A stretch of DNA of 64,000 nucleotides from Minisyncoccota bacterium (GTDB lineage Archaea; Nanobdellota; Nanobdellia; Pacearchaeales; GW2011-AR1), in NCBI GenBank assembly GCA_035453125.1, contig DAOTCN010000001.1:233634-297633 (forward strand). The letters run 5' to 3'. Under the pieces are notes generated by a model. The model was not told the origin of the DNA and searched no databases. It saw only the letters and a list, made by a program, of their open reading frames with translations. Below are positions 34,599 through 42,015 of this stretch, in pieces; the first letter of the stretch is position 1; every line of letters starts with the position of its first letter. The position numbers were made by a program, and so were the translations under genes.

Positions 34599-37184
34599 TT
34601 AATTTTCTCTTCCTTCAATTGCTTTGATATGAAGTTCGTGCATTCTCTGTAAGAATGCTTGCTTATCTTCAATTTTTATCAAGTCTGTGTGGCCCTGCAA
34701 AATCAAATTTAATGCAAATGGTGATGGCAATGGTGTTGGCTTGATCTTTATTTTGACTTCTCCTGATTTTATTAATTTAAGCACTTTCTTTGTACTTTCA
34801 ATATCCATCAAATCTTCTAGAACTTCTCTTCTTGCTTCTTTTAATATTGGAAAATTTTTTGATATCTTTCTTACTGCAGAAATTAAAAAATGACTTTTTA
34901 ATTGTTGACGACCTACGCTTCTATTATCTCCTTTATAATTTCTTAGAATCATAAGTGAACGAGTAGCACAATGTCTGAATCTTCTTGTTAATATATCTGT
35001 TTTTTCTATTGCTTCAACAAGAGCTTCATTTATATTCTCCGGGGTCAAGTATTCAATAGCTTTTTCTAATTGTAAATTTTCTCCTGCAAAGTAAAATCCG
35101 TTATCATTTATTCCTATCTCAATATCTCTTCCGCCTATACTTCCCATTAACAGACCAAGCGCTCTTGAAAGAGCATCATTTACTCTTCTTCCATACATAC
35201 TATGAACAAGCAGATAATTTTTCTCACCCTTATATTTTTCTACTAAAATTAATTTTGAATTTGGAATTTCTGAAAATTCAAATTGTTCTTTAAAATAATT
35301 ATATATTAAATTTGAAACAATTTCATCAACATATAAATATTCTTGAATTAATTTCTTTATCTCATTTTCACTTTTTTTCTTCGAAAAATGTTCATTCATT
35401 AAATGTCTAAACCTATTTATCTCATTTGCTGAATCAAAACTTAATGGAAGCATTTCGGAAAACCATGAAGGAATTGTTGGATTTCTATTTATAGCAGGTT
35501 TTACATAAATATTCATTCCTCTTGAATATAAATACATATATTTGTTTCCACCTAAAACAAAAACATCTCCTTTTTTCATTCTCTCCATAAAATTTTCATC
35601 AATGACTCCTATTTTTTCTCCTGAGGGGGATAATTTTACATTTATAAATGACTCATCTGGAATTGTTCCGATATTTGTTAAGTAAATTACTCTTGCCATT
35701 TTACCCCTTTTTCCAATTTGTTTTGTTTCTTGGTCATACCAAATTTTTCCATATACATGACTTTTTTCAAGTGCATATTCTCCTGCAAGATAACTGATTA
35801 TATCATAGTAATCATTTTTTGATAGTTCATGGTAGCAATAGCTTTTTCTAATTATTGAAAATAATTCTTCAACATCCCAATTTTGATAAATTGCCATCCC
35901 AAATATTTGTTGTGCAAGAACATCTAAACAATTTTTTGGAAATACAACTTTATCAATTTTTTTCTCAATCATTTCTTTTTGTATTACTGAACATTCAATT
36001 AAATCATCTCTATCCATTACAACAAAGTTTCCTCTTGCAACTTCATTTAATTTGTGCCCTGCTCTTCCAATTCTTTGAAGCGCACGAGAACTAGCTTTTG
36101 GTGAGCCTAACATTAAAACTAAATCAATATAACCAATATCAATTCCTAGTTCTAAGCTTGTTGAACAGACAACAACTTTTAATTCACCTTTCCTTAGCCT
36201 CTCTTCTATATTAAAACGATGTAACTTGCTAAGTGAAGAATGATGTGCTGCAATATTCTCATCGTATTCTGTTGGAAATCTTTCTTTTAGTTTATTTACA
36301 ACTCTTTCTGTTCCAGCTCTTGTATTTGTAAATATTAATGTTGTTTTATACTCTTTGATTAGACGGTGTAATAAACTGTATGTATCTTCAAGAATATTTT
36401 TTTCGTTAATTAAATTTTTTGCAGGACTTAAAACTTTTATTTGGAGTTCCTTTTGCATTGGAACTTTTGCAATGTAAACTTCTCTGTCATTATCAATTCC
36501 AACTAAAAATTTTGCAACCTCTTCTGCTGGTTCCATTGTTGCACTTAAACCAATCTTAACTGGCCAAACTAAGCTAATACTGTTTAATCTTTCTAAACTT
36601 AAGCTTAAATATGTACCTCTTTTATTGTCCATTGCATGAATTTCATCTATTATACAAAATTCAACAAGTTTCATATAATCTACTACTTTTTTTGATGTAA
36701 GGATTATTGCCAGAGATTCAGGTGTTGTTACTAGTATATGCGGTGCTTTCTTTGCCATCTTTGCCCTTTCACTGTCTGTTGTATCTCCTGTTCTCAAACC
36801 AACTCTTATCTCTTGTAATTTAATATTTTTTGAATCTGCAAGTTTATTTATCTCTTCTAACGGTTCTATAAGATTTTTATAAATATCATTACTAAGTGCT
36901 TTTAATGGAGAAATATAAACTGCATATGTTCTATTTCCTAATTCATTTCTTTCAGCAATTGTTACCAGATAATTGATTATTGAAAGAAAAGCAGTTAATG
37001 TTTTTGTTCCTCCTGTTGGTGCTGAAATTAAGATATTTTTTCTTTCCCAGATTGCTGGTACACCATATCTTTGAGGAAGTGAAAAATCATTAAATTTTGT
37101 GAAAAACCACTCTCTAACTAATGGATGTAAGACTAATTCTATATCTTTCTTTTCTCGTATTAAAGCTTCCACTATATTAGTCAT
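34599..37184 (-). CDS. lhr: Lhr-type DEAD/DEAH-box (superfamily 2) helicase
   Basis: 861 aa. APTGGTKT, IIDEIHAM, SAT, helicase C motifs QRIGRAGH. Lhr-core-like C-terminal extension. Confidence 0.9.
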   Translation of the reverse strand: MTNIVEALIREKKDIELVLHPLVREWFFTKFNDFSLPQRYGVPAIWERKNILISAPTGGTKTLTAFLSIINYLVTIAERNELGNRTYAVYISPLKALSNDIYKNLIEPLEEINKLADSKNIKLQEIRVGLRTGDTTDSERAKMAKKAPHILVTTPESLAIILTSKKVVDYMKLVEFCIIDEIHAMDNKRGTYLSLSLERLNSISLVWPVKIGLSATMEPAEEVAKFLVGIDNDREVYIAKVPMQKELQIKVLSPAKNLINEKNILEDTYSLLHRLIKEYKTTLIFTNTRAGTERVVNKLKERFPTEYDENIAAHHSSLSKLHRFNIEERLRKGELKVVVCSTSLELGIDIGYIDLVLMLGSPKASSRALQRIGRAGHKLNEVARGNFVVMDRDDLIECSVIQKEMIEKKIDKVVFPKNCLDVLAQQIFGMAIYQNWDVEELFSIIRKSYCYHELSKNDYYDIISYLAGEYALEKSHVYGKIWYDQETKQIGKRGKMARVIYLTNIGTIPDESFINVKLSPSGEKIGVIDENFMERMKKGDVFVLGGNKYMYLYSRGMNIYVKPAINRNPTIPSWFSEMLPLSFDSANEINRFRHLMNEHFSKKKSENEIKKLIQEYLYVDEIVSNLIYNYFKEQFEFSEIPNSKLILVEKYKGEKNYLLVHSMYGRRVNDALSRALGLLMGSIGGRDIEIGINDNGFYFAGENLQLEKAIEYLTPENINEALVEAIEKTDILTRRFRHCATRSLMILRNYKGDNRSVGRQQLKSHFLISAVRKISKNFPILKEARREVLEDLMDIESTKKVLKLIKSGEVKIKIKPTPLPSPFALNLILQGHTDLIKIEDKQAFLQRMHELHIKAIEGREN

Positions 37185-37251
37185 TTTAAGAATAAGTTAT
37201 TTAATCAGATAATTATAAATGCTCTCTTTTTAAAACTTATGATTACTTGTG

Positions 37252-37725
37252 TTACAAGAATAAATTCTTTTCCACAATCAATTGCATATGTTCTATGTAA
37301 TTATTCCAACCATTAACCGGTAATGGAAGTAAATCATCAGGATAAGTTTTATTTTCTAAACCAATATAACAAAGCTGTTCACCTTTTTTTTCATTTACAA
37401 TAACATTTTTTGTAGGACCAACCCATAATGTCTTATTATCTTCTACCAAAGGTAATGCATAATTTGATTTAATAAAATCTACAATAGAAATATGATAGTC
37501 TAAAAGTTCAATTAAATTATCCCTTTTTTCTCTCTTTTGAGCAGGACTTTCTTCTTGAAAACTTCCGGAATAAAACTCTGACATTGCTTTTGCAAGTAAT
37601 GTTGAATGTCTTATTTGAGCATTATAACTGTCTAAAGCTACACCAAAAGGTTTTAGCTCAGTACTTATTTTATTATCTGAAGTTGAAACATTCACACTTT
37701 TATTTGATTTTCTTATTAATATCAT
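37252..37725 (-). CDS. hypothetical protein
   Basis: 157-aa ORF upstream of lhr. No motif recognised. Confidence 0.4.
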   Translation of the reverse strand: MILIRKSNKSVNVSTSDNKISTELKPFGVALDSYNAQIRHSTLLAKAMSEFYSGSFQEESPAQKREKRDNLIELLDYHISIVDFIKSNYALPLVEDNKTLWVGPTKNVIVNEKKGEQLCYIGLENKTYPDDLLPLPVNGWNNYIEHMQLIVEKNLFL

Positions 37726-37886
37726 TTTTATTTAAACTAATTTTTTAAGAAAAGGTTAGTTTATAAATCTTTCGTTTTTAGTAATTGATTAGTAGTAACA
37801 ATTTATTCAATAAATGACCTTTAATGATTAAATCTATGTTTGTCTCAATGATAAAGTTAAAAATTAATAAATAAATTTAAAACTAA

Positions 37887-38195
37887 TTATTCTAATTCTC
37901 TAATCTGATTTTTAATAATATCTTCTTGATCTTTAGAAATATAATTATTGTCTTTTTCGGTTATCTCCTCTTCTTGTTTTTTAATCTTTTGTTCTTTTTC
38001 TTTTGAATTTGATGAATTTAATTCTTCTAGTAACTTTTTCTTTTTTTCAAGGGTTTCTTTTGAAATAACAAGCTTTTGCTCAATAAATGAATTACCTTTG
38101 AACATGTTTGCTAAATCATACTCAGTATTCTTAATTTTTGACTTTAGTTCTTCTATTTCTTCTATTAGCTTTTCTTTTTCTGATTTTTCGGTCAT
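37887..38195 (-). CDS. hypothetical coiled-coil protein
   Basis: 102 aa, K/E-rich heptads. Preferred over the antisense S/F-rich ORF 37948-38220. Confidence 0.4.
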   Translation of the reverse strand: MTEKSEKEKLIEEIEELKSKIKNTEYDLANMFKGNSFIEQKLVISKETLEKKKKLLEELNSSNSKEKEQKIKKQEEEITEKDNNYISKDQEDIIKNQIRELE

Positions 38196-38312
38196 TTTTT
38201 TTATTTTTTTAAATACATAGTTTAATTAAATTTTGTTAAAAAACGGTAATTTTTAGAGACCTTGAAGGTATATATACTTTTAGTTTTGTATAAAATCCTT
38301 TCAATAATAAAC

Positions 38313-38320
38313 TTTAAATA
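38313..38320 (+). promoter_or_regulatory. TATA box (TTTAAATA) of the receptor gene
   Basis: Ends 23 nt before the ATG at 38343. Confidence 0.55.
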
Positions 38321-38342
38321 GGATTTTGTATACAATAATAAC

Positions 38343-40625
38343 ATGGTAAAAAAGGGAGGAAAATTTTATTTTGTAATAGTTTTGATTTTTTCAATAATTA
38401 CTCTTATTTTTCCGTTTGTTTCAGCAGATATCTTTCTTGCAAAATCTCCTGAATCAACTTATAATCTAGGTGATGTAATGAGTGTAGTACTTGGTTCAGA
38501 TGGAAGTGAAGGTTGGGCAAGTGTTGATCTTGCTTGTAGTAATGAATCAAAAATGATATATTTTAGATATCTAACAGATGAACAAGCTATTGAAATTCTT
38601 ACTCCTTTTAATAAAGAATTTTTAAGAAGTATGCTAGGGGATTGTATTTTAAAACTTAGTTTTAATGGTAAACAAAAAGATAGTCTCCCATTTTTTATAT
38701 CAGATGTATTAGATGTTTCAGTTTATACTGAAATAACAGAATTTAATCCGGGTGAAACTGTTGTTTTTAGTGGAAGTGTAACAAAACCTAATGGAAAAAT
38801 AGTAAACTCTGCAACTGTTGATTTAAAGTTTACAAGTATAAATCTTGGAACAATTGTTGAAGTAAACGAAGGCTCTTTTTCTGGCAGTTTTGTGTTGCCT
38901 GAAAATTTAAAATCTGGAAGTTATGAATTTAGTGTATTCGCTTCTGAAAAAGATTCTTTGGGAGATGTAACAAATTATGGAGAATCTAAAAATAGTATAA
39001 CAATTAAACAAATGCCAACAATCTTGAACATTTCAAGTTCAGAAAAAGCAATTCCTGGAAATAACTTTGATTTTAGTTCATTATTATATGATCAAATTGG
39101 AGAGATTATTAATTCAAAAGTTGTTGATTATACTATAACTGACATTAATGATACTATTATTTTAAGTAGATTGTCCAATGTTGGGGATAATGGAGTATTA
39201 AGCTTACCAAAAAATGCTCCCTTTGGAGCTTGGAAAATAATTGCTGAATCTGAAGGAATTAATAATGAAAAAATATTTTATGTTGAAAAAAATATGGAAG
39301 CAACTTTTGAATTAATTGATGGAACTCTTAAAATAACTAATGTAGGTAACATACCTTATACTAGAAAAATTGAAATGAATATTGGCAATGAAACAAACGT
39401 TACTTATGTTAATTTAAGCTTAGGAAAATCAGTAGAGTTTAAACTTTCAGCTCCTAGTGGTGTTTATGACATTGGTGTAAATGATGGTACTAAAAGTGAA
39501 AATTGGTCTGGTGTTTCATTAACAGGCAATGCAATTTCATTTGGAACATCGAAAAAAGGTGCAATTGGTTTTTTTAATAGAAGTGCTTTTGTTTGGGGAT
39601 TTTTAATTACTTTATTACTATTATTTGCAATTGTTCTTGGAACAAAAAAGTATATGAATAAAAACTATTATTTTAATTCAAAAGATAAAAACTCAAATAT
39701 TTCTAAAAAACAGGTAATGCCAATTATAAGTACTCCTAGCGTTTCTAAAAATGGAGGAATTGTTAAAATCACTTCTGAGAATGATAGAAAACCTGGAATT
39801 GAAATTGATAATGGTTTCTTAACTTATTCTCCAACAATTGATGGAGTAAGACAGGTAGCAGCAATAATTGCTATTAAAATAAAGAACTATTCTGAAATAA
39901 AACAAAACCCTGGAATGACTGAAGAATATTTAAAAAAATTGTCTGAAAGCATTATAAATAATAAAGGTAAGGTTTACAAGGTAAATGATTCTATAATTGG
40001 AGTATTCACTTCTAGTTATACTAAAAGTTCTGATAATGAAATGATTGCAATAAAAACTGCAAAAAGAATTAGTGAAATACTTAAAGATTATAATTCCAAA
40101 TTTAGTCAAAAGATTATTTTTGGTATTGGACTAAATACTGGTGAAGTAATTATAAAACCAGATAATGGAAAATTATTATTTAATGGAATTGGAAATGTTC
40201 TAACAAATGCAAAAAGAGTTGCAGAATTATCTGATAATGAACTTTTGCTTAGTGAAGACTTTCAGAGAAAGGTTTCTTCGAGAGTTAGAACAACACTAAA
40301 TGAAGTTGGAAGTGGAATAATAAAAACTTACAAATTAAATGAAATAATTAGTAGAAATGAGAATAGTCAATTTATTGAATCATTCTTAAAAAGAAATCAA
40401 GAATATAATTCTTTAAGAGCTTATAGAAGTGAAAGACCAAATACAATAAGAACACCATCCCCAATTACTCCTGTAGCTGACAAACCATTTAAAACAACAA
40501 TTTCTCCTCAAAGTTATCCAAATGAAAGAAGTATTGTAACAAAAGAGGATTTTCAAAAAGGACATGCAGGTTATAGTTCAAAGACCGAAAATAATCCTGC
40601 TAAAAAAAGTGCGATTGACTGGTAA
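38343..40625 (+). CDS. single-pass surface receptor with cytoplasmic divergent class III cyclase-homology domain
   Basis: 760 aa. Signal peptide, ~385-aa beta-rich ectodomain, TM at aa ~414-433. Aa ~503-650 align by eye to the class III cyclase pattern (IFGIGLNTGEVII, GIGNVLTNAKRVAELS..ELLLSEDF). Confidence 0.55.
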   Translation: MVKKGGKFYFVIVLIFSIITLIFPFVSADIFLAKSPESTYNLGDVMSVVLGSDGSEGWASVDLACSNESKMIYFRYLTDEQAIEILTPFNKEFLRSMLGDCILKLSFNGKQKDSLPFFISDVLDVSVYTEITEFNPGETVVFSGSVTKPNGKIVNSATVDLKFTSINLGTIVEVNEGSFSGSFVLPENLKSGSYEFSVFASEKDSLGDVTNYGESKNSITIKQMPTILNISSSEKAIPGNNFDFSSLLYDQIGEIINSKVVDYTITDINDTIILSRLSNVGDNGVLSLPKNAPFGAWKIIAESEGINNEKIFYVEKNMEATFELIDGTLKITNVGNIPYTRKIEMNIGNETNVTYVNLSLGKSVEFKLSAPSGVYDIGVNDGTKSENWSGVSLTGNAISFGTSKKGAIGFFNRSAFVWGFLITLLLLFAIVLGTKKYMNKNYYFNSKDKNSNISKKQVMPIISTPSVSKNGGIVKITSENDRKPGIEIDNGFLTYSPTIDGVRQVAAIIAIKIKNYSEIKQNPGMTEEYLKKLSESIINNKGKVYKVNDSIIGVFTSSYTKSSDNEMIAIKTAKRISEILKDYNSKFSQKIIFGIGLNTGEVIIKPDNGKLLFNGIGNVLTNAKRVAELSDNELLLSEDFQRKVSSRVRTTLNEVGSGIIKTYKLNEIISRNENSQFIESFLKRNQEYNSLRAYRSERPNTIRTPSPITPVADKPFKTTISPQSYPNERSIVTKEDFQKGHAGYSSKTENNPAKKSAIDW

Positions 40626-40695: not shown

Positions 40696-41142
40696 ATGAA
40701 AAAGAGAGTATTTATCTTCTTAGAATTTTTAATTTGGGGGGTTTTATTTGGTATTTTTGAAGATTTTATCTTGATTAAATTAGCATCTAATGAATATTTT
40801 ACTTTTAATGTTTTATGGATTGTTCTGTTAGTTACAATACCTTTTGCTTTTGTTGGAGAGTATGTAGTTGATAAAATTAATTTTTTAAAGTTATTCAATC
40901 TAGGAAAAAAATATACTTCTGCAGAAGTTTTTTTTGAATTCTTAATTTTTGGTGTTCTTCTTGGAATTATTGAAGATTTAACTGCATTTTATTTTGCGAT
41001 TGGCAATCAAATAACGTTTAATGTTGTTTTAATTGCAACAATTGTATCAATACCTTTTGCTTTTGTTGGAGAATTTTTGATTGACGGGATAAACTTTTCA
41101 AAATCATTTGAAATAAAAAGAATTGTTATGAAGAGAAAATGA
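40696..41142 (+). CDS. membrane protein made of two tandem ~70-aa repeats
   Basis: FLEFLIWGVLFGIFEDF...TIPFAFVGEYVVDKINF is repeated as FFEFLIFGVLLGIIEDL...SIPFAFVGEFLIDGINF. Confidence 0.55.
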   Translation: MKKRVFIFLEFLIWGVLFGIFEDFILIKLASNEYFTFNVLWIVLLVTIPFAFVGEYVVDKINFLKLFNLGKKYTSAEVFFEFLIFGVLLGIIEDLTAFYFAIGNQITFNVVLIATIVSIPFAFVGEFLIDGINFSKSFEIKRIVMKRK

Positions 41143-41507
41143 AGAGAAAATTAACCTTCTTGATACCAAGAATATTAATTATATTATTTGCAGTATTTTT
41201 AGCTTTGTTTTCGCTTGATGTTTTTGATTCTTGTTCAGGATTTAATTGTGTTTTAGGACTGTTTATACACAATATTCCTTCAATATTCTTGATAGTTCTT
41301 TTGATAATCTCTTGGAAACATGATTTAGCTGGAGCAATAATATTTGGGTGTCTTGGAATTCTTGGATTTATTGGTCTTTTGTTTGTTGGATTAATATATA
41401 ATGAAAACAGATCTAACTTCATGTTAGCTATAATTGGAGTTGTATTCCTTTTAGCCGGGATATTGTTTTTTATTAGATGGAAAAGAGATAATAGAAAAAA
41501 GAAATAG
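41139..41507 (+). CDS. hypothetical membrane protein
   Basis: 122 aa, 4 TM. ATGA overlap with the previous gene. Confidence 0.5.
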   Translation: MKRKLTFLIPRILIILFAVFLALFSLDVFDSCSGFNCVLGLFIHNIPSIFLIVLLIISWKHDLAGAIIFGCLGILGFIGLLFVGLIYNENRSNFMLAIIGVVFLLAGILFFIRWKRDNRKKK

Positions 41508-41535: not shown

Positions 41536-42015
41536 ATGGAAGAAGAATGTTGTCCGAAGTTTGATCCAAAAAAATGGGATGAAAAAACATTTCATTGGAA
41601 GGAAAAAAAGTTTATCAGAGATTCTATGACTACTTTGTTTCATATACCTCTTTCTTCAGTTTTAACTAAAAAAATAACTCGGATTTGTAGTGTTGCTGAA
41701 AAAGAAAAAAAAGTTTCAGCAAAAAAAGATGAAGTTTTATTGTTATTCCGAGATCCAAGTGCATTTAAATCAGAGATATATCTTTCTGTAATTGATGAAA
41801 TTCCTGGAGAAGAAAATGTAAAAATTTCTGGAACATTCATAGCTAAAGTTTATTCGGGACCATATAAAGCCGTTCCAAAATTTATAAAAGAATTCAATGA
41901 GTATCTTGCAAATAATGGAAAAAAAGCAAAAGACTATTACATACATTATGCTTACTGTCCAAAATGTGCAAAGAAATATGGTGATAATTATATGATAATC
42001 TTTGCAGAAATTTGA
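41536..42015 (+). CDS. hypothetical protein
   Basis: 159 aa. N-terminal CC and C-terminal CPKC. No family recognised. Confidence 0.45.
   Translation: MEEECCPKFDPKKWDEKTFHWKEKKFIRDSMTTLFHIPLSSVLTKKITRICSVAEKEKKVSAKKDEVLLLFRDPSAFKSEIYLSVIDEIPGEENVKISGTFIAKVYSGPYKAVPKFIKEFNEYLANNGKKAKDYYIHYAYCPKCAKKYGDNYMIIFAEI

What the first reader, a model, noticed from the sequence alone, without database searches (positions are those of the whole stretch)
38343..40625. Single-pass surface receptor fused to a degenerate class III nucleotide-cyclase homology domain
The architecture is a signal peptide, a ~385-aa beta-rich ectodomain, one TM (aa ~414-433), a cytoplasmic domain (aa ~503-650; nt ~39849-40300) and a Pro/Ser-rich tail. 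By eye the cytoplasmic domain follows the class III adenylyl/guanylyl cyclase pattern: VAAIIAIKIKNYSEI ... KVNDSIIGVF ... IFGIGLNTGEVII ... GIGNVLTNAKRVAELSDNELLLSEDF. The first metal-binding Asp of the usual DIxGFT motif appears replaced (IKIKNYS). The second Asp and the Asn/Arg transition-state pair seem retained. This suggests a pseudo-enzyme, an obligate heterodimer, or altered chemistry. Receptor-type class III cyclases are rare in Archaea, and no cNMP-binding partner is visible in the window.
Basis: partly seen in the sequence, partly recalled or inferred. Interest (0 to 1): 0.6.

Follow-up and report, generated by a model that had tools for sequence, protein, structure and literature searches.

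The report
Dead-cyclase surface receptor of Pacearchaeota
This gene encodes a single-pass surface protein of a tiny-genome (DPANN, Pacearchaeota-type) archaeon: the outside is four macroglobulin-like domains, and the inside has the fold of a cAMP/cGMP-making enzyme but lacks its catalytic residues, so it is most likely a conserved, undescribed "pseudo-cyclase" and not a working cyclase.

Summary
The ORF (38343-40625, 760 aa) and its architecture are real. It has a signal peptide, four MG-type beta-sandwich domains, one TM helix, a variable linker, a ~200-aa cytoplasmic domain and a lineage-specific Pro/Ser/Thr tail.

The cytoplasmic domain is a true class III cyclase homology domain (CHD):
- A family profile hits cyclase structures (2w01, E=1.6e-5).
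- The AF2 model (pLDDT 94) matches only class III cyclases (E to 1e-12).
- Orthologues pass Pfam's PF00211 threshold, although P0001 alone does not.

The catalytic set is lost family-wide. Metal Asp1 is Lys512 (conserved LKIKN), Asp2 varies, the transition-state Asn position is Thr621, and only the Arg position stays basic.

The gene is a near-universal single-copy gene of the lineage (143/151 genomes). The own genome has no second CHD and no cNMP-binding domain, so a heterodimer is unlikely.

New here: a rare sister group has the same ectodomain joined to a fully intact CHD and a transducer-like helix (hhalign E=1.8e-48). It marks the likely ancestor and gives a positive control.

The function of the dead domain is unknown. 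The family appears unpublished, though this scan has met it before.

The parts
38314..38321 (+). TTTAAATA, an archaeal TATA-box-like element about 22 nt upstream of the ATG. It suggests the gene has its own promoter and a leaderless or short-leader mRNA.
   Evidence: Read directly from the sequence. Its function is inferred, not tested.
38343..40625 (+). Complete ORF of 760 aa (P0001), including the stop codon.
38343..38423 (+). Signal peptide (aa 1-27; KK n-region, hydrophobic core, VSA|D).
   Evidence: Sequence. The SA(E/D)I start of the mature protein is conserved in the family. Cleavage is inferred.
38427..38705 (+). Ectodomain beta-sandwich 1 (aa ~29-121) with invariant Y40 and G43 and the invariant Cys pair C65/C101.
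   Evidence: AF2 model; invariant columns.
38712..39008 (+). Ectodomain beta-sandwich 2 (aa ~124-222), the Pfam MG2 domain.
   Evidence: PF01835 at aa 127-202, E=2.6e-9, above the cut-off. AF2. Foldseek matches to C3/C4/C5, A2M, TEP1 and CD109.
39015..39287 (+). Ectodomain beta-sandwich 3 (aa ~225-315), with the conserved PG...YDQ motif.
39300..39548 (+). Ectodomain beta-sandwich 4 (aa ~320-402), membrane-proximal, with the conserved NxTLxIxNxGNxPY...APxGxY motif.
   Evidence: An orthologue hits DUF7407 weakly here.
39582..39650 (+). Single transmembrane helix (aa ~414-436), followed by KKY on the cytoplasmic side.
   Evidence: AF2 helix at A2 residues 384-413, equal to aa 409-438; sequence.
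39651..39806 (+). Variable cytoplasmic linker (aa 437-488). It is not conserved and P0001 carries a ~23-aa insertion. It has no cyclase-transducer or coiled-coil element.
   Evidence: Mostly gap or unconserved columns. In contrast, the intact sister group has the MFGSYVD helix.
39807..40355 (+). Cyclase homology domain (aa 489-671), class III fold, catalytically degenerate.
   Evidence: The A1 profile hits 2w01 at E=1.6e-5. AF2 gives pLDDT 94.3. The Foldseek top 50 are all class III cyclases. hhalign to the intact sister family gives E=1.8e-48.
39873..39887 (+). IKIKN (aa 511-515), replacing the canonical (F)xDIxG(FT) motif. K512 sits in the metal-Asp1 column and N515 in the Gly column.
   Evidence: Column counts are K512 104/149, K514 126/149 and N515 137/149. 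Alignments.
39987..39989 (+). D549, in the metal-Asp2 column. It is present in P0001 but not conserved in the family.
   Evidence: D63/N31/G19 of 149; alignments.
40203..40217 (+). T621-N-A-K-R625. T621 is in the transition-state Asn column and R625 in the Arg column. K624 is nearly invariant.
40356..40409 (+). Family-specific C-terminal helix (aa 672-689) with near-invariant F677, I678, F681 and R684. It is absent from canonical CHDs and from the intact sister group.
   Evidence: AF2 helix at residues 184-201; conservation; alignment.
40410..40622 (+). Pro/Ser/Thr/Lys-rich C-terminal tail (aa 690-760), lineage-specific and probably disordered.
   Evidence: It falls in gap columns in the family. 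It is the longest tail of 97 members.

Best explanation
P0001 is a non-catalytic 'pseudo-cyclase' surface receptor. It is the core, single-copy member in this genome of a large, unannotated Pacearchaeota-type family.

Shown:
- An exported, acidic rod of four macroglobulin (MG)-type beta-sandwiches is anchored by one TM helix.
- A flexible, unconserved linker tethers a class III cyclase-fold domain in the cytoplasm.
- That domain has lost the two-metal catalytic apparatus. Asp1 is a conserved Lys, Asp2 and the transition-state Asn columns are unconstrained, and the Lys-bearing beta7-beta8 'KGK' loop is shortened.
- The beta4-beta5 'arm' (FGIGxNxGE...KF..xG) is kept.
- The domain has gained strongly conserved new residues (LKIKN, TKTFxNE, HN, AKK) and an extra C-terminal helix (FIxxFLxR).
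- The family shares full-length ancestry with a rare group of MG-ectodomain receptor cyclases that keep every catalytic motif and a transducer-like helix.

Inferred:
- The protein descends from such an active receptor cyclase and no longer makes cNMP.
- The retained arm keeps it a head-to-tail dimer.
- Because the rigid transducer helix is gone, any signal would pass by ligand- or contact-induced clustering, not by helix rotation.
- The remodelled, basic former active-site cleft and/or the new C-terminal helix then bind an anionic ligand or a cytoplasmic partner.
- The ectodomain most plausibly recognises a partner-cell or environmental surface.
For: Architecture.

CHD homology:
- Profile against PDB: 2w01 at 1.6e-5 and 6fht at 1.7e-4, with further cyclases next and two unrelated chains also below E=1.
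- The AF2 model has pLDDT 94.3, and the top 50 Foldseek hits are all class III cyclases, E down to 9.5e-13.
- The A1 profile finds canonical CHASE2- and GAF-cyclases of related genomes at 1e-12 to 1e-16.
- PF00211 passes its own cut-off on several orthologues (33.5, 26.3, 24.8 bits and others) and on the order-level relative L017 (27.0 bits).

Loss of catalytic residues: column counts over 149 sequences and three independent alignments.

No partner or reader: the own genome has no PF00211 hit and no PF00027 hit. Only 14 of 151 family genomes have a strong canonical CHD, and 1 of 151 has a cNMP_binding domain.

Importance: 143 of 151 genomes in 143 of 150 genera carry it, almost always in one copy, as do 182 of 201 genomes in the order.

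Intact sister group:
- L043 and P0152-P0163 have the same ectodomain (BLASTP colinear, E=3e-23).
- hhalign gives probability 100%, E=1.8e-48, over 611 columns.
- PF00211 scores 77 bits on L043.
- FTDIRGFS, KFIGDSVM and GxPVNIAxR are present in all full-length members.

The pseudo family is monophyletic on a long branch (100/99). The ectodomain is acidic (-17) and richer in N-x-S/T than the cytoplasmic part.
Against:
- P0001 alone gives no Pfam or NCBIfam cyclase hit.
- P0001 itself still has D549, K546 and R625 in canonical columns, so residual or altered nucleotide chemistry cannot be excluded by sequence.
- Dimerisation, the basic pocket and clustering are inferences. No multimer model or model coordinates were available.
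- Conserved neighbours are housekeeping genes (TrpRS, ThrRS). Context therefore gives no functional partner.
- The CHD tree does not place the intact group as the direct sister of the pseudo family. A domain swap, rather than in-place decay, is therefore possible.
- A purely structural envelope role would fit most of the data equally well.
Confidence: 0.6

Rival explanations
1. Structural envelope protein. The MG-domain rod is a cell-surface or S-layer-associated stalk or adhesin. The cytoplasmic cyclase-fold domain is only a dimerisation or anchoring plug with no signalling or ligand-binding role.
For: - It is a near-universal single-copy gene in very small genomes.
- The ectodomain is acidic and sequon-rich.
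- The linker is floppy, with no transducer element.
- No signalling partner or reader is seen in the genome or the neighbourhood.
Against: - The cytoplasmic domain is more conserved than the ectodomain.
- Several former active-site columns are fixed to new residues: N515 in 137/149 and K624 as K/R in 149/149.
- A new near-invariant C-terminal helix has been added.
- This pattern suggests a specific interaction, not a passive plug.
Confidence: 0.25
2. Active enzyme with altered chemistry. The Lys-substituted site still turns over nucleotides or another phosphate ester by a metal-independent or one-metal mechanism.
For: - The motif that replaces the first metal Asp is conserved, not decayed: K512 104/149, K514 126/149, N515 137/149.
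- The Arg column stays basic: K101/R40 of 149.
- P0001 keeps D549 and K546.
Against: - Asp2, the transition-state Asn and both substrate-specifying columns are unconstrained in the family.
- The Lys-bearing beta7-beta8 KGK loop is shortened.
- To my knowledge no class III cyclase works without both Asp residues (my own knowledge, not tested here).
- 150 of 151 genomes lack a cNMP_binding reader.
Confidence: 0.07
3. Obligate heterodimer. The degenerate domain pairs with a catalytically competent CHD to form one active and one regulatory site, as in mammalian AC C1/C2 or soluble guanylyl cyclase.
For: - The heterodimer principle is well known for class III cyclases.
- The arm region is conserved.
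- A few genomes of the lineage do carry both forms, for example G218.
Against: - The own genome has no other CHD at E<=1 and only one A1 match.
- Only 14 of 151 family genomes have a strongly matching (E<1e-14) PF00211 domain, against 143 of 151 with this protein.
Confidence: 0.02

Closest known systems
Class III adenylyl/guanylyl cyclase catalytic domains (Pfam PF00211). Nearest solved examples: Cya2 (2w01), the phytochrome-cyclase chimera (6fht), RhoGC (6aob, 5oyh), Rv1625c (7yz9) and CyaC (1wc0).
   Same: It has the same fold: TM-score 0.6-0.77 and Foldseek E to 1e-12. The beta4-beta5 arm motif GIGxNTGE is retained, the alpha4 Arg column stays basic, and the secondary-structure order is the same.
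   Different: Metal Asp1 is replaced by Lys and the neighbouring Gly by Asn. Asp2, the transition-state Asn and the specificity residues are unconstrained. The KGK loop is shortened. An extra C-terminal helix is present. P0001 alone is below Pfam detection.
The MG-ectodomain receptor cyclases found here (L043 in genome G218; clusters P0152-P0163). They are unnamed and known only from metagenomes.
   Same: The full-length architecture is colinear: signal peptide, MG-type ectodomain, one TM helix and a CHD. hhalign gives probability 100%, E=1.8e-48, over 611 columns. L043 comes from a genome of the window's own GTDB family.
   Different: They keep FTDIRGFS, KFIGDSVM and GxPVNIAxR, and a transducer-like MFGSYVD helix. 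PF00211 scores 77 bits on L043. They lack the FIxxFLxR helix. They are rare: about 12 clusters, against 610 representative clusters for the pseudo family.
Single-pass receptor-type class III cyclases of eukaryotes: trypanosomatid ESAG4/GRESAG4 adenylyl cyclases and the natriuretic-peptide receptor GC-A (9bcv).
   Same: The layout is the same: extracellular ligand-binding domain, one TM helix and an intracellular CHD. The GC-A cyclase domain is among the Foldseek hits.
   Different: The ectodomain fold differs (MG beta-sandwiches, not periplasmic-binding-protein-like). There is no kinase-homology domain or coiled-coil transducer. The CHD is catalytically degenerate. The comparison of ectodomain types rests on my own knowledge of those families.
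Pseudo-symmetric degenerate sites of heterodimeric cyclases: the mammalian AC C2/forskolin site and the soluble guanylyl cyclase alpha subunit.
   Same: They are a precedent for a CHD active-site half that has lost catalytic residues and serves regulation or ligand binding (my own knowledge).
   Different: Those sites always work beside a catalytic half-site. Here no catalytic partner exists in the genome.
MG domains of alpha-2-macroglobulin, complement C3/C4/C5, TEP1 and CD109.
   Same: The ectodomain is a chain of MG-type beta-sandwiches. Pfam MG2 matches at E=2.6e-9, and Foldseek gives E about 1e-12 to C4b, C5, A2M and TEP1.
   Different: There are only four domains. In the 386-aa ectodomain Pfam finds only MG2 and the AF2 model is all-beta, so there is no thioester domain, bait region, CUB or anaphylatoxin domain. 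It is membrane-anchored and has a cytoplasmic CHD.

Membership tests
Class III nucleotidyl cyclase homology domain (PF00211) | Cyclase-type palm fold (beta-alpha-beta-beta-alpha-beta core plus the beta4-beta5 arm) | tested here: met
   The AF2 model has pLDDT 94.3 and pTM 0.86. The top 50 Foldseek PDB hits are all class III cyclases, E from 9.5e-13 to 4.7e-9.
Class III nucleotidyl cyclase homology domain (PF00211) | Significant sequence-profile match of this protein itself to PF00211 | tested here: not met
   P0001 gives no hit at E<=10. The six-frame PF00211 search of the own genome gives none at E<=1. Single-sequence phmmer against PDB gives cyclases only at E 0.2-1.5.
Class III nucleotidyl cyclase homology domain (PF00211) | Significant profile-level homology of the protein's family to cyclases | tested here: met
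   The A1 profile hits 2w01 at E=1.6e-5. A1 hits canonical DPANN cyclases at 1e-12 to 1e-16. PF00211 is above its cut-off on orthologues and on L017. hhalign to the intact sister family gives E=1.8e-48.
Class III nucleotidyl cyclase homology domain (PF00211) | Two metal-binding aspartates (beta1 DIxGFT and the beta2-beta3 GD) | tested here: not met
   The Asp1 column is K512 (K in 104/149). The Asp2 column is D549 in P0001 but D63/N31/G19 across the family.
Class III nucleotidyl cyclase homology domain (PF00211) | Transition-state Asn and Arg on alpha4 (GDxVNxAxR) | tested here: not met
   The Asn column is T621 (family T34/S30/I19), and N622 is one residue off. The Arg column is R625 (family K101/R40), so only that position is retained.
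Class III nucleotidyl cyclase homology domain (PF00211) | Substrate-specifying pair (Lys/Asp-Thr for ATP, Glu/Cys for GTP) and the triphosphate-binding Lys of the beta7-beta8 loop | tested here: not met
   The first column is K546, but the family has E50/K25/S15. The second is N614, with family T83/M37/A11. The KGK loop is shortened and holds no conserved Lys.
Class III nucleotidyl cyclase homology domain (PF00211) | Head-to-tail dimer and cyclase activity | not testable with these tools
   Only single-chain prediction is offered, and there is no biochemistry. The conserved arm motif is only suggestive.
Receptor-type (single-pass) class III cyclases | Extracellular domain, one TM helix and an intracellular CHD | tested here: met
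Receptor-type (single-pass) class III cyclases | Helical or coiled-coil transducer element directly N-terminal of the CHD | tested here: not met
   The linker aa 437-488 is unconserved and gap-rich. The intact sister group has the invariant MFGSYVD...ILxK segment, which has no counterpart in the pseudo family.
Alpha-2-macroglobulin / complement (thioester-containing proteins) | MG (macroglobulin) beta-sandwich domains | tested here: met
   PF01835 scores 37.8 bits against a cut-off of 32.8. Foldseek matches C4b, C5, A2M, TEP1 and CD109 at about 1e-12 to 1e-10.
Alpha-2-macroglobulin / complement (thioester-containing proteins) | Thioester domain, bait region, 7-8 MG domains | tested here: not met
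   The 386-aa ectodomain models as four beta-sandwiches only. Pfam finds no other domain.

The most novel reading that the evidence does not exclude
The LKIKN/AKK-remodelled cleft of the dimeric dead cyclase domain may be a metal-independent pocket for an anionic ligand, such as a nucleotide, a cyclic oligonucleotide, polyphosphate or a lipid head group. Together with the new FIxxFLxR helix, it would form the output of a lineage-defining contact receptor of Pacearchaeota. MG-rod binding to a partner-cell surface would cluster receptors and switch ligand or partner binding inside. This would be a new signalling principle derived from, but no longer using, cNMP synthesis.
Probability: 0.15. Interest if true: 0.8.

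Novelty: new variant of a known kind. Interest (0 to 1): 0.5.

Why it matters
DPANN archaea have very small genomes, and what they retain is informative. This protein is kept as a single copy in about 95% of genomes across some 150 genera, yet it is annotated only as 'hypothetical protein' with an MG2 domain. It is a candidate for the surface-recognition machinery of a very abundant, uncultivated lineage.

It is also a clean natural example of a pseudo-enzyme in the class III cyclase superfamily that stands alone, with no catalytic partner. Its ex-active-site residues are re-fixed, not decayed.

The catalytically intact sister proteins with the same ectodomain make the question testable. They supply a matched positive control and an evolutionary before-and-after pair.

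Tried and rejected
1. Direct Pfam and NCBIfam scans of P0001 and of the cytoplasmic piece found only MG2 and no cyclase hit.
2. The word-indexed homologue search on the cytoplasmic region found just one relative. The full HMMER scan was needed to reveal the family.
3. The search for related loci with the A1 alignment failed because no stretch was conserved enough.
4. Conserved gene neighbourhood was examined. In 16 of 18 other genomes the gene lies divergent to TrpRS, with ThrRS, HtpX-like and LemA-like genes nearby. This is housekeeping colinearity. The window's own locus is rearranged (Lhr helicase side). Operon-partner ideas were therefore rejected.
5. A heterodimer partner or second CHD in the genome was searched for and none was found.
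6. cNMP_binding readers are absent from the genome and from 150 of 151 family genomes. This does not discriminate well, because even the genomes with canonical cyclases lack PF00027.
7. The CHD-only tree shows the pseudo family monophyletic on a long branch, but it does not resolve whether the intact MG-receptor group is its direct sister.
8. Literature searches for this family gave nothing relevant.
10. Conserved residues could not be mapped in 3D because model coordinates are not exposed. The statements about a 'basic pocket' rest on topology reasoning only.
Full report
**1. The observation**

The window has about 27% G+C. It lies in an 872-kb, 12-contig genome that is about 90% complete. 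An orthologue is named 'Candidatus Pacearchaeota archaeon, hypothetical protein' by NCBI.

ORF 38343-40625 (+) encodes 760 aa. A TTTAAATA box sits about 22 nt upstream of the ATG. The overall layout is confirmed:
- a signal-like N-terminus ending in VSA|D;
- an all-beta ectodomain;
- one TM helix;
- a cytoplasmic globular domain;
- a Pro/Ser/Thr-rich tail.

**2. The cytoplasmic domain is a genuine cyclase homology domain**

On its own, P0001 is invisible to Pfam and NCBIfam cyclase models. It gives only sub-threshold phmmer hits to cyclase structures, at E 0.2-1.5.

A full HMMER scan of 1.84 billion representatives found 610 relatives at E<=1e-3 and 483 at E<=1e-10. Most are 630-750 aa with the domain at the C-terminus.

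- **Profile against PDB.** A 42-sequence profile (A1) hits Cya2 (2w01) at E=1.6e-5 and 6fht at 1.7e-4, followed by rhodopsin guanylyl cyclases. Two unrelated chains (ribosomal eS1) also fall below E=1.
- **Profile against genomes.** In related genomes the same profile finds textbook CHASE2- and GAF-linked cyclases at 1e-12 to 1e-16.
- **Pfam on relatives.** PF00211 itself passes its gathering cut-off on several orthologues of P0001: 33.5, 26.3, 24.8 and 24.3 bits, among others. It also passes on an order-level relative with the same architecture, L017, at 27.0 bits.
- **Structure.** AlphaFold2 on A1 gives pLDDT 94.3. The top 50 Foldseek PDB matches are all class III cyclase domains, with E down to 9.5e-13 and TM up to 0.77.

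Neither is met.

**3. The catalytic residues are gone, family-wide**

Three independent alignments agree: HMMER to 2w01, MAFFT with canonical DPANN cyclases and hhalign to the intact sister family.

| Canonical position | P0001 | Family counts (of 149) |
|---|---|---|
| Metal Asp1 | K512 | K 104 |
| Residue two after Asp1 | K514 | K 126 |
| Gly of DIxGFT | N515 | N 137 |
| Metal Asp2 | D549 | D 63, N 31, G 19 |
| Transition-state Asn | T621 | T 34, S 30, I 19 |
| Transition-state Arg | R625 | K 101, R 40 |
| Specificity residue 1 | K546 | E 50, K 25, S 15 |
| Specificity residue 2 | N614 | T 83, M 37, A 11 |

The Lys-bearing beta7-beta8 KGK loop is shortened. N622 is one residue out of register.

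What is conserved instead:
- the arm motif FGIGxNxGE...KF..xG;
- TKTFxNE (T560 and N565 near-invariant);
- H583-N584;
- A-K624-K/R625;
- an added C-terminal helix with F677, I678, F681 and R684.

Re-fixation of LKIKN and AKK suggests a new constraint on the old cleft, not free decay. This is an inference.

**4. No partner and no reader**

The own genome has a single A1 match, no PF00211 match at E<=1 and no cNMP_binding domain.

Across 151 genomes of the same GTDB family:
- 143 carry this protein, almost always as one copy, in 143 of 150 genera;
- only 14 carry a strongly matching (E<1e-14) PF00211 domain;
- only 1 carries a PF00027 domain.

In the order, 182 of 201 genomes hit. The matches in other families of the order are weaker. 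An obligate catalytic heterodimer is therefore very unlikely.

**5. The ectodomain**

AF2 on a 28-sequence alignment (A2) gives pLDDT 90.5. The model shows four beta-sandwiches followed by the TM helix.

Foldseek matches the MG domains of complement C4b, C5 and C3, of alpha-2-macroglobulins, and of TEP1 and CD109, at E about 1e-12. The low global TM-scores are expected for a beads-on-a-string rod. Pfam MG2 is above threshold on domain 2. In this 386-aa, all-beta ectodomain Pfam finds nothing but MG2, so there is no thioester or bait region.

The N-terminal domain carries an invariant Cys pair (C65/C101) and the YNLGD motif. The membrane-proximal domain carries NxTLxIxNxGNxPY. The ectodomain is acidic (net -17) and has 8 N-x-S/T sequons, against 3 in the cytoplasmic part. 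The cytoplasmic part is basic.

**6. A catalytically intact sister group**

Genome G218 belongs to the same family and has a second A1 hit. It encodes a 679-aa protein (L043) that is colinear with P0001 from the signal peptide to the end of the CHD: BLASTP 25% identity, E=3e-23.

Its CHD scores 77 bits on PF00211. It has FTDIRGFS, KFIGDSVM and GSPVNIAFR, and is preceded by a transducer-like MFGSYVDNKILDKE helix. About a dozen metagenomic clusters (P0152-P0163) share this form, and all full-length members keep the motifs.

Profile-profile comparison of the two full-length families gives probability 100%, E=1.8e-48, over 611 aligned columns. In the CHD tree the pseudo family is monophyletic (100/99) on a long branch. 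L017 lies between it and the canonical sequences, and the intact MG-receptor group clusters with the canonical CHDs.

The simplest reading is that an MG-ectodomain receptor cyclase was the ancestor. The widespread form then lost catalysis and the transducer helix and gained the C-terminal helix. A domain swap cannot be excluded.

**7. Context**

In 16 of 18 other genomes the gene is divergent from TrpRS, with ThrRS, HtpX-like and LemA-like genes nearby. This is housekeeping colinearity, not an operon. The window's locus is rearranged. An Lhr helicase, an MPE phosphoesterase and small ORFs lie upstream. Small membrane proteins, a PF20603 hydrolase and an MFS transporter lie downstream.

The 76-aa tail of P0001 is the longest in the family. 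It is shared only in part with its closest relative, P0002.

**8. How it most likely works**

Shown:
- an exported MG-domain rod, one TM helix, a floppy linker and a class III-fold domain without the two-metal site;
- lineage-wide purifying selection.

Inferred:
- it forms a dimer through the retained arm;
- it does not synthesise cNMP;
- any signalling would work by clustering, not by helix rotation;
- the basic remodelled cleft and/or the C-terminal helix bind an anion or a partner;
- the ectodomain recognises a surface.

A purely structural role is the main rival. Altered chemistry and heterodimerisation are minor rivals.

**9. Novelty**

No paper in the searchable library describes this family. 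Earlier AI notes of this scan reached the same 'dead cyclase receptor' reading on orthologues in other genomes. I re-derived it independently here.
- the genome-wide and family-wide absence of partners and readers;
- the quantified distribution;
- the intact sister group.

It is a new variant of a known kind, of moderate interest.

Noticed in passing
L043 (G218:C23:3000-7600), protein of 679 aa; clusters P0152-P0163: A rare group of MG-ectodomain, single-pass receptor cyclases with a fully intact class III catalytic domain and a transducer-like helix. L043 lies in a genome of the window's own GTDB family, where it is a paralogue of the dead form. Receptor-type class III cyclases in DPANN archaea may be worth a finding of their own.
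   Followed up: partly
window 40696-41507: A 148-aa internally duplicated small membrane protein is followed, with a 4-nt overlap, by a 122-aa DUF7670 membrane protein (PF24709, E=2.9e-22). They lie directly downstream of the receptor on the same strand. They are not among the conserved neighbours in the 18 other genomes compared.
   Followed up: partly
window 41536-42015: A 159-aa protein with a full-length match to Pfam 'Bacterial hydrolase' (PF20603, E=7e-52) in an archaeal genome.
   Followed up: no
window 37887-38195 (-): A 102-aa, Glu/Lys-rich, probably coiled-coil protein is encoded divergently just upstream of the receptor. It has no family match, and no counterpart next to the orthologues in the other genomes compared.
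   Followed up: partly
window 34599-40625 versus L021-L038: The receptor's usual neighbourhood (divergent TrpRS, with ThrRS, HtpX-like and LemA-like genes nearby) is conserved in 16 of 18 related genomes. It is absent at the window's locus, which instead abuts an Lhr-type helicase and an MPE phosphoesterase pair. This is a local rearrangement in this genome.
   Followed up: partly
151 genomes of the window's GTDB family: A canonical cNMP_binding domain (PF00027) is found in only 1 of 151 genomes, although 14 genomes carry strongly matching (E<1e-14) class III cyclase domains. Those cyclases must be read by something else (GAF or unknown).
   Followed up: no
L017 / L038 (G267:C1, a different family of the same order): A 706-aa relative has the same architecture, but its CHD has degenerated differently (FIHLGISS instead of LKIKN; GDTTYLAKA instead of GDxVNxAxR). 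It still passes the PF00211 cut-off at 27 bits.
   Followed up: partly
G237 and G568 (same genus as the window's genome): Two genomes of the window's own genus, 93% and 86% complete, show no match to the family profile, while seven others of the genus do. I did not determine whether this is real loss or an assembly gap.
   Followed up: no
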